From assembly GCA_964016885.1 (NCBI GenBank), contig OZ024756.1, forward strand, positions 41,478,001 through 41,542,000: a stretch of 64,000 nucleotides of DNA, in the 5' to 3' direction. Position numbers and translations under genes: made by a program. Each line of letters starts with the position of its first letter. Within the stretch, counting starts at the first letter, position 1. The notes under the pieces are model-generated. The model made no database searches, had not been told where the DNA came from, and saw nothing but the letters and a program-made list of their open reading frames with translations. This DNA is from Eledone cirrhosa (Eukaryota). This document shows, in pieces, positions 37,353 through 37,972 of this stretch.

Positions 37353-37972
37353 ATATTTATTAAAATAACAGATTAAAGTTTAAGCAAAGAATCGCTGCTT
37401 TCACCCTTAACGGGATCTTCTGAAACTAACAAAGTCAATCTGTAAACGCAGAACTGGATATTTCAAAAAACGTTGCAACCGGAGGAAGACAGGAAGACGA
37501 TACTTTGGTTCGTGGAAACGTTCGCTGGCTAAGAACGGGAAAAAACGAATATAATACGTCATTAATAGGAGCGGTGAAAATCTCTATGCACCACCTAAGA
37601 GAACATTAGTCTACGACCTCTATTATACTATAAACGTGGTTCTGTCTTTGCGCGTATTGTTTTTCACCGCTCCTATTAATGACGTATTATATTCGTTTTT
37701 TCCCGTTCTTAGCCAGCGAACGTTACCACGAACCAAACTATCGTCTTCCTGTCTTCCTCCGGTTGCAACGTTTTTTGAAATATCCAGTTCTGCGTTTACA
37801 GATTGACTTTGTTAGTTTCAGAAGATCCCGTTAAGGGTGAAAGCAGCGATTCTTTGCTTAAACTTTAATCTGTTATTTTAATAAATATTTGCTCTACGGT
37901 TCTTATATATTTGATATATATTTATCCTTATCGAGCCCTCTTTGGATTTTAGTCTTCAAATTTATTATTATT
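37353..37972 (+). mobile_element. Family F element: ~228-bp inverted arms, 80-bp spacer, 3' tail
   Basis: 37353-37580 and 37661-37888 are near-perfect reverse complements; flanked by (TA)n-rich tracts. Confidence 0.92.
37814..37864 (+). ncRNA. Hammerhead-fold motif with variant core CAGAAGA, family F (mirror copy 37377-37427 on minus)
   Basis: AGTTT-CAGAAGA-T-CCC-gttaa-GGG-T-GAAA-GCA-gcgattctt-TGC-TT-AAACT; stem I extends via CAGATTGA/TTAATCTG. Confidence 0.7.

What the first reader, a model, noticed from the sequence alone, without database searches (positions are those of the whole stretch)
37814..37864. Family F has a fixed non-canonical hammerhead core (CAGAAGA, U4 to A)
Seen: every F arm that spans the core (37377-, 37814+, 56658-, 56744+, and 35107+ from the A onward) reads CAGAAGA instead of CUGANGA, while stems I, II, III and GAAA are intact; the triplet is CUU. 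The copies are near-identical, so the change was in the source element. Known: U4 is part of the conserved CUGA turn. Inference: this is either an active natural core variant or a family that keeps transposing with a dead or attenuated ribozyme.
Basis: partly seen in the sequence, partly recalled or inferred. Interest (0 to 1): 0.75.

Follow-up and report, generated by a model that had tools for sequence, protein, structure and literature searches.

The report
Mutant hammerhead in Hydra-clade Penelope element
A jumping-gene family with over 17,000 matching copies in this animal genome carries a self-cutting RNA motif with one normally fixed core letter changed (U to A), and because its stems and other core letters stayed the same while its loops changed in older copies, it is likely a slowed cutter that is still maintained rather than a decaying one; cutting is untested.

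Summary
Observation confirmed, with corrections. Family F is the pseudo-LTR hammerhead of a Hydra-clade Penelope-like retrotransposon, identified by the RW, DKT, CxCX5C and CxxC/CxH motifs and (TA)n targets. A4 stands in 17,572 of 17,750 genomic pattern matches (99.0%). It also dominates older subfamilies, and I found no U4 sister family; most apparent revertants are fold-back junctions. All 25 published Hydra hammerheads read CUGA. Between young and old subfamilies, 0 of 37 stem and core positions changed, against 4 of 12 loop positions (p=0.002) and 21 of 95 upstream positions. One sub-lineage changed the free N7. So the fold is maintained, not drifting. Copy ends pile up at the first base of stem I, often behind an extra G, which suggests a capped RNA starting there. 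73 of 75 copies span the cut site, so uncut RNA is the template. Best reading: a slowed, possibly protein-assisted ribozyme (0.5); a non-catalytic fold is the main rival (0.3). No RNA run or cleavage data were available. I found no natural U4A hammerhead in print.

The parts
37814..37864 (+). Type I hammerhead motif with A at core position 4 (37820), U10.1.U11.1 closure and CUU triplet; predicted cut between 37859 and 37860
37799..37872 (+). Extended stem I: 37799-37806 pairs with 37865-37872 around a 7-nt bulge; the 5' strand is unchanged between young and old subfamilies while the bulge changed at 3 of 7 positions
   Evidence: (predicted pair probability 0.96)
37812..37817 (+). Initiator-like TTAGTT (TCAGTT in older subfamilies; consensus recalled); inferred RNA start at 37814
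   Evidence: 5' ends of copies pile up at this base, often behind a non-native G
37581..37973 (+). Right arm of a head-to-head insertion: end of the 3' UTR, pseudo-LTR with the hammerhead, and the long tail
   Evidence: 97.7-98.2% identical to element L051
37889..37973 (+). Optional 85-nt tail present on one arm only; inferred second reverse-transcription start
   Evidence: tail logic from PMC11167929
37353..37580 (-). Left (inverted, 5'-truncated) arm with the short end, abutting (TA)n
37377..37427 (-). Second A4 hammerhead copy, identical to 37814-37864
56634..56733 (-). Inverted arm of a second insertion, with an intact A4 hammerhead at 56658-56708
56729..56898 (+). Direct arm with tail; A4 hammerhead at 56745-56795 with a T>G change that breaks stem I
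35107..35259 (+). 5'-truncated copy beginning at core position 4, inserted in (TA)n
40649..40838 (.). Third two-armed insertion (40649-40696 minus, 40695-40838 plus), truncated inside stem II; lacks the 5' half of the core

Best explanation
The motif is the pseudo-LTR hammerhead of a Hydra-clade Penelope-like retrotransposon in which U4 became A in an ancestral element and stayed A through several waves of copies, and it is likely a slowed, possibly protein-assisted ribozyme whose fold is still under selection. Shown: the element type, fixation of A4, constancy of stems and core against changing loops, and copies that span the cut site. Inferred: the RNA starts capped at the first base of stem I. 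The element's protein copies uncut RNA from starts about 75 or 160 nt downstream into nicked (TA)n. Cutting at position 46 would remove the cap and shorten the template, so slow cutting is tolerated or favoured. A4 would lower the rate twice: it removes the U-turn uridine, and it pairs with U11.1 to extend a decoy helix (UUUCA/UGAAA) that traps G12-A15.1.
For: Element: L051 is pLTR-ORF-pLTR, with RW, DKT, YRDD, CxCX5C, GIY-YIG-like and CxxC/CxH motifs, matching the Hydra definition. Fixation: 17,572 of 17,750; subfamily F2 99 of 100 listed; relatives with a 6-8-nt loop II 87 of 100 listed; 35 of 40 informative copies in an old-family sample chosen without the core. Selection on the fold: majority changes 0/37 in stems and core, 4/12 in loops (p=0.002), 7/19 in loops plus bulge (p=0.0002), 21/95 upstream (p=0.0005). 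N7 is T in 8 of 48 old copies, several sharing loop and tail variants. Uncut template: 73 of 75 F copies extend past the cut site. Capped start: 8 of 47 copies at risk end exactly at +1, against 0.16-0.45 expected; G precedes +1 in 18 of 29 such insertions, against 16% background (manual de-duplication). Decoy helix probability 0.73 with A4 and 0.06 with U4. Literature: mutations in the CUGA turn give low activity (PMC9901934); a U4C viroid variant is much slower in vitro yet viable (PMC3088659); the PAc hammerhead needs protein, and its mutants still insert in vitro (PMC11167929).
Against: No cleavage or RNA data exist. The nine core positions alone are not significantly conserved: at the upstream rate the chance of no change is about 0.1 (my arithmetic). 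The downstream tail is also conserved (3/56), so the whole leader may be constrained for other reasons. There is no compensatory change within the lineage. The canonical CUGA family G also shows no pile-up of ends at its cut site (1 of 30), so the uncut-template result does not separate A4 from U4. The hammerhead fold is 3.3 kcal/mol above the predicted minimum. CUU and U17 are sub-optimal (recalled). The old sample mixes subfamilies and was projected on a young reference.
Confidence: 0.5

Rival explanations
1. Catalysis is lost. The three-way fold, or its DNA sequence, is kept only as a protein-binding 5' leader or an internal promoter, much as Naiads thrive without a canonical hammerhead.
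For: The motif occupies +1 to +51 of the inferred transcript, and Penelope promoters are internal (PMC2377424 passages). The tail is conserved too. Hammerhead mutants do not affect PAc insertion in vitro. Craig 2021 suggests that hammerheads may be dispensable. A4 favours a decoy helix.
Against: Unpaired catalytic letters (G5, A6, G8, A9, G12, A13, A14) did not change while N7 did. Loop II length varies between 5 and 6 nt among subfamilies, which would shift downstream DNA elements against the start site (strict spacing recalled).
Confidence: 0.3
2. A4 is a fully functional natural core variant; the extended stem I, dimer formation or the element's protein compensates for the lost U-turn uridine.
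For: Long conservation of core and stems, including the distal stem I. Rare active natural core variants exist (PMC3088659 section 8; A6C is active in Mn2+, PMC7151607). The PAc hammerhead is protein-assisted.
Against: In a complete single- and double-mutant scan, nothing rescued CUGA-turn mutants except the C3-G8 swap (PMC9901934 passages). All 25 published Hydra families keep U4 (their descriptor may require it). Predicted misfolding.
Confidence: 0.12
3. Neutral relic: the ribozyme died with U4A and is carried along, with too little time yet to decay.
For: The youngest step alone (F2 against young) gives only p=0.03. No compensatory changes. One genome only.
Against: 0 of 37 changes where about 8 are expected from the upstream rate; the changes fall in loops (p=0.002).
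Confidence: 0.05
4. U4A was kept because it creates a 3' splice acceptor (pyrimidine run, then CAG at C3-A4-G5) that splices out the 5' half of the ribozyme in read-through RNA.
For: The sequence reads TTTCAG behind a T-rich stretch, and GTAAGT donors lie in the 3' UTR of L051. In D. virilis an intron ends at helix I (PMC4209133).
Against: An acceptor at +8 of a transcript starting at +1 has no intron in the 5' copy. No spliced genomic copy was noticed among the copies read (not searched for systematically).
Confidence: 0.03

Closest known systems
Hammerheads of Hydra-clade Penelope-like elements (Craig et al. 2021, PMC8557442; section 11, passages, supplementary File S2 rows read)
   Same: Same protein signature, (TA)n targets and pseudo-LTR position; type I topology; U10.1.U11.1 closure (14 of 25 families) and U17 (10 of 25).
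   Different: All 25 listed families read CUGA and have C15.2-G16.2 (GUH triplet). F has CAGA, G15.2-C16.2 (CUU) and a longer, non-palindromic stem-loop III. The paper calls canonical hammerheads universal in this clade.
Minimal and variant hammerheads of metazoan PLEs (Cervera and De la Pena 2014, PMC4209133; parts 1-2 of 4 read)
   Same: Type I motif in pLTRs, widespread as truncated and inverted copies; low in vitro activity; a natural core variant (U3-A8) is described.
   Different: U3-A8 is a compensated pair swap; U4A has no partner. F has a monomer-capable stem III.
Natural core variants of Perreault et al. 2011 (PMC3088659; section 8 and passages), including viroid U4C and phage A6C
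   Same: A single change in the CUGA turn, with reduced activity thought to be biologically tolerated; U-U at 10.1-11.1.
   Different: Those are rare single examples. F has the change fixed in more than 17,000 copies and several subfamilies, and the letter is A. Figure 5 of that paper could not be seen.
PAc (Poseidon, Anolis) protein-assisted hammerhead (Frangieh et al. 2024, PMC11167929; parts 1-2 of 4 read)
   Same: Internal start of reverse transcription, optional tail, AT-rich targets, uncut RNA as template.
   Different: Canonical core, a different PLE clade; its hammerhead overlaps the start codon, whereas F's ends about 150 nt before the ATG.

Membership tests
Hydra-clade PLE | Single ORF with RT and C-terminal GIY-YIG endonuclease between pseudo-LTRs | tested here: met
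   L051 pLTR-ORF-pLTR; YRDD and IIYKC..YTG motifs by eye; this copy has a frameshift near residue 645. Pfam gave no RT hit; atlas neighbours score 0.95-0.96, some with RVT_1 or GIY-YIG
Hydra-clade PLE | RWK motif and DKG changed to DKT | tested here: met
   RWR (K to R) and DKT in P0002 against section 11
Hydra-clade PLE | CxCX5C linker; CxxC and CxH around conserved E and N | tested here: met
   CNCRNRVDC; CDLC..E..N..CKH in the downstream frame
Hydra-clade PLE | Insertion into (TA)n, optional tail, inverted 5'-truncated arm | tested here: met
Hydra-clade PLE | Placement in the RT tree | not tested
   reference proteins were not available as session sequences
Hydra-clade PLE | Canonical hammerhead in the pLTR | tested here: not met
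   A4 fixed; no other [C/T]UGA-type core on the sense strand of L051. An associated trait, not a defining one
Hammerhead ribozyme (type I) | Three stems around the core in type I order | tested here: met
   stems unchanged while loops vary; not the predicted minimum-energy fold
Hammerhead ribozyme (type I) | Core consensus C3 U4 G5 A6 N7 G8 A9 | tested here: not met
   U4 is A in 99.0% of matches
Hammerhead ribozyme (type I) | G12 A13 A14, A15.1-U16.1 pair and H17 | tested here: met
   GAAA and CUU
Hammerhead ribozyme (type I) | Covariation in the stems | tested here: inconclusive
   invariant within the A4 lineage; 15.2-16.2 swapped against the clade norm
Hammerhead ribozyme (type I) | Rfam covariance-model match | tested here: not met
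   none at E<=10 over 37360-37900; the canonical neighbours were not scanned separately as a control
Hammerhead ribozyme (type I) | Site-specific self-cleavage after N17 | not testable with these tools
   needs an assay; no RNA holder listed

The most novel reading that the evidence does not exclude
This is the first natural U4A hammerhead that still works. It sits at the very 5' end of the retrotransposon's capped RNA as a tuned, protein-assisted decapping switch, and weakening it at U4 let this lineage outgrow its canonical neighbour family. That would make PLE hammerheads self-limiting valves rather than processing tools, and show that the U-turn uridine is dispensable in a cellular RNP.
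Probability: 0.2. Interest if true: 0.75.

Novelty: new variant of a known kind. Interest (0 to 1): 0.5.

Why it matters
What PLE hammerheads do is an open question: proposals range from processing tandem transcripts to mere parasitism (PMC8557442, PMC11167929). This family is a natural experiment. A core mutation expected to cripple catalysis has been carried through several amplification waves with the rest of the fold intact. The genome supplies ready controls: natural U4 copies and a canonical family of similar build. One cleavage assay would show whether catalysis or only the fold is what selection keeps. It also means that CUGA-anchored searches miss whole hammerhead lineages, and it is an exception to the statement that canonical hammerheads are universal in the Hydra clade.

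Tried and rejected
1. A hidden U4 subfamily. CTGAAGA with F's stem II makes up 15 of the first 100 rows. All 10 that I read are fold-back junctions centred on position 4, with stem I lost. A pattern excluding most such junctions gave 230 matches; 99 of the 100 listed are F-lineage. About 8 of the 29 distinct copies read have native upstream sequence, mostly F2 type. A minor reverted F2 branch is not excluded.
2. Other unrelated A4 families. One search gave 2,507 matches; the 100 listed are almost all F-lineage copies with a CpG change.
3. Truncation at the cut site as a fossil of cleavage. No peak in F (2 of 75) or in canonical family G (1 of 30); not discriminating.
4. Expression and splicing. 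No RNA holder listed. The contigs laid showed no GT-AG joint among the rows shown and no other letter at position 4 at 2% or more. Runs X5 and X6 (organisms B, C) hold near-identical sequence at depth 2-40, possibly carry-over, so they are not independent support.
5. Relatives outside this genome. The metagenome scan found none; the DNA search of the own genome was blank because common words are skipped.
6. The 848-aa ORF in L056 is an unrelated LINE-type RT.
7. A first guess of Neptune or Naiad was dropped after the Hydra definition was read.
8. Literature. Searches for a natural U4A found none. Lunse 2017 and three recalled biochemical papers were not held or not tried by a valid id, so published U4A rates were not seen. 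One supplement file of PMC4209133 could not be searched, and figures are not held. A search for the cap-derived extra G found nothing, so that interpretation rests on recall.

Full report
OBSERVATION. The stretch 37814-37864 reads as a type I hammerhead: stem I AGUUU/AAACU, core CAGAAGA, a U.U-closed stem II of three C-G pairs, GAAA, a 5-bp stem III and the triplet CUU. Identical 51-mers lie at 37377-37427(-) and 56658-56708(-). The copy at 56745(+) has a broken stem I, the one at 35107 begins at position 4 after (TA)n, and the pair at 40649-40838 lacks the 5' core. Rfam does not call the motif, and its folding energy is no better than shuffles.

FIXATION. The window lies in a 3.0-Gb genome. 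A 31-letter pattern with position 4 free matches 17,750 times; with A excluded, 178 times. The 100 listed non-A rows are G 39, T 34, C 27, which looks like scattered mutation. These counts are arms, not insertions. A downstream anchor matches 30,656 times. Copies with CTGAAGA and F's stem II looked at first like a U4 subfamily (15 of 100 rows), but all 10 read are fold-back junctions centred on position 4. A search for U4 relatives with the same start of stem III gave 230 matches, 99 of the 100 listed being F-lineage. I found no U4 sister family, within the limits of exact patterns.

THE ELEMENT. Locus L051 holds pLTR-ORF-3'UTR-pLTR. Its protein has RWR, DKT, YRDD, a CxCX5C linker, GIY-YIG-like motifs and, past a frameshift in this copy, CxxC..E..N..CxH. 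These are the features given for the Hydra clade of Penelope-like elements, which target (TA)n (PMC8557442 section 11). No tree was built. Many loci carry ORF pieces 85-98% identical to it. The paper's supplementary table lists hammerheads of 25 Hydra families (26 rows). All read CUGA and G16.2, 14 close stem II with U.U, and 10 have U17. So U.U and U17 are clade traits, while A4 and the swapped 15.2-16.2 pair are F's own.

A LONG-LIVED LINEAGE. A4 is not confined to the young copies. Subfamily F2 has 3,772 matches, 99 of 100 listed with A. Relatives with a longer loop II have 309 matches, 87 of 100 listed with A. Because those patterns impose the core, I sampled older subfamilies by an anchor outside the motif: 389 matches, 90 loci read from the first 100 listed. 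Coverage per hammerhead position is 29-85, and these copies differ from their own majority by 12.6% against 2.9% for the young sample. A4 stands in 35 of 40 informative copies. Majority changes between old and young samples: stems plus core 0/37, loops II and III 4/12, stem I bulge 3/7, distal stem 5' strand 0/8, upstream 21/95, tail 3/56. Fisher tests give p=0.002 against loops and p=0.0005 against upstream. N7, the one free core position, is T in 8 of 48 old copies. Against my reading: the tail is nearly as conserved, the core alone is not significant, no compensatory change occurs, and the old sample mixes subfamilies.

WHERE THE RNA STARTS. I read 75 distinct copies from 70 loci out of the first 100 anchor matches, all in the first 27 Mb of one contig. 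25 end 37-50 nt upstream of the cut site, 8 exactly at the first base of stem I, against 0.16-0.45 expected from neighbouring rates. Over all loci, after manual de-duplication, I dropped 10 insertions whose G is explained by the inverted arm, 3 ambiguous ones, and those keeping native bases. G precedes +1 in 18 of the remaining 29, against 16% in the flanks. The native letter is T or C. An extra G is what copying a cap leaves, and TTAGTT/TCAGTT resembles an initiator (both recalled; a paper search was blank). I infer a capped RNA whose first 51 bases are the hammerhead. 73 of 75 copies cross the cut site, so uncut RNA was copied. The canonical family G (7,495 anchor matches) behaves alike, with 1 of 30 ending near its cut site, so this does not measure A4's activity.

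MECHANISM. In vitro work on PAc shows internal starts of reverse transcription, uncut RNA as substrate, a hammerhead that needs the protein, and no loss of insertion in ribozyme mutants (PMC11167929). F's short and long ends at about +75 and +160 fit two such starts (inference). Cutting at +46 would remove the cap and truncate the template, so slower cutting costs little. Mutational scanning found low activity for CUGA-turn changes other than the C3-G8 swap (PMC9901934 passages). A viroid U4C variant is much slower yet viable (PMC3088659 passages). Folding predicts that A4 pairs with U11.1 and extends a decoy helix over G12-A15.1 (probability 0.73 against 0.06 with U4; 0.39 against 0.015 in the extended form). 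I therefore commit to a slowed ribozyme still under selection (0.5), with a non-catalytic fold or promoter (0.3), full activity (0.12), neutral relic (0.05) and splice acceptor (0.03) as rivals.

MEMBERSHIP AND NOVELTY. The element meets the motif definition of the Hydra clade. The RNA works like, and descends from, a type I hammerhead, but it fails the U4 consensus and cleavage is untested, so I do not file it as a proven ribozyme. Searches of the held library found no natural U4A. Lunse 2017, which treats PLE hammerhead variants, was not held, and figures and one supplement file were not visible, so prior description cannot be excluded. The scan's own index had nothing for this sequence and listed other core variants in other genomes. 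Papers seen: PMC4209133 and PMC11167929, parts 1-2 of 4; PMC8557442 passages, section 11 and supplement rows; PMC3088659 passages and section 8; bioRxiv 10.64898/2026.07.22.740005 part 1 of 5; passages only of PMC9901934, PMC6765202, PMC2377424, PMC3846280, PMC1636495, PMC4191386, PMC6155905, PMC11014351 and PMC7151607.

VERDICT. A real, fixed and long-maintained U4A variant of a known ribozyme in a known retroelement clade. New variant of a known kind; interest 0.5, limited by the absence of any activity or RNA data and by resting on one genome.

Noticed in passing
window 51862(-) and 51973(+): Canonical CUGAAGA hammerheads of a second PLE family (G) with the same U.U closure, a palindromic stem III and a GUU site; ORF pieces near such copies are 31-44% identical to F's protein; 7,495 anchor matches.
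   Followed up: partly
window 10289(-), 16931(-), 17071(+), 18408(+): Further canonical hammerheads with an 8-bp stem I and an AUA site, from other repeat families.
   Followed up: no
L066, L070, L071, L082, L090, L092: Fold-back inversion junctions centred exactly on core position 4 (the TTC-A-GAA near-palindrome) are common, roughly 1,200 by extrapolation from 14 of 100 listed rows of 8,480; they mimic U4 revertants.
   Followed up: partly
L041 and L169: Two-armed insertions in which both arms begin with the extra G before +1, joined by 1-3 spacer bases: possibly two full-length capped templates joined head to head.
   Followed up: no
L051:4333-4570: An older internal tandem duplication of about 120 nt (80% identity) in the 3' UTR, and two GTAAGT donor-like sites further upstream.
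   Followed up: no
L059, L063 (G000:C3:139.29-139.50 Mb): A tandemly amplified block with repeated F arms, some with C at position 4; it inflates the C count among non-A copies.
   Followed up: no
L056:1506-4049(-): An 848-aa open LINE-type RT frame (RVT_1 E=1.6e-28, zf-RVT) between F arms.
   Followed up: no
L238, L367, L407 and other oldest copies: Stem-loop III of the oldest A4 subfamily resembles a decayed palindrome around AATTG, like family G's dimer-type stem III, suggesting a shift from a dimeric to a monomer-capable stem III.
   Followed up: no
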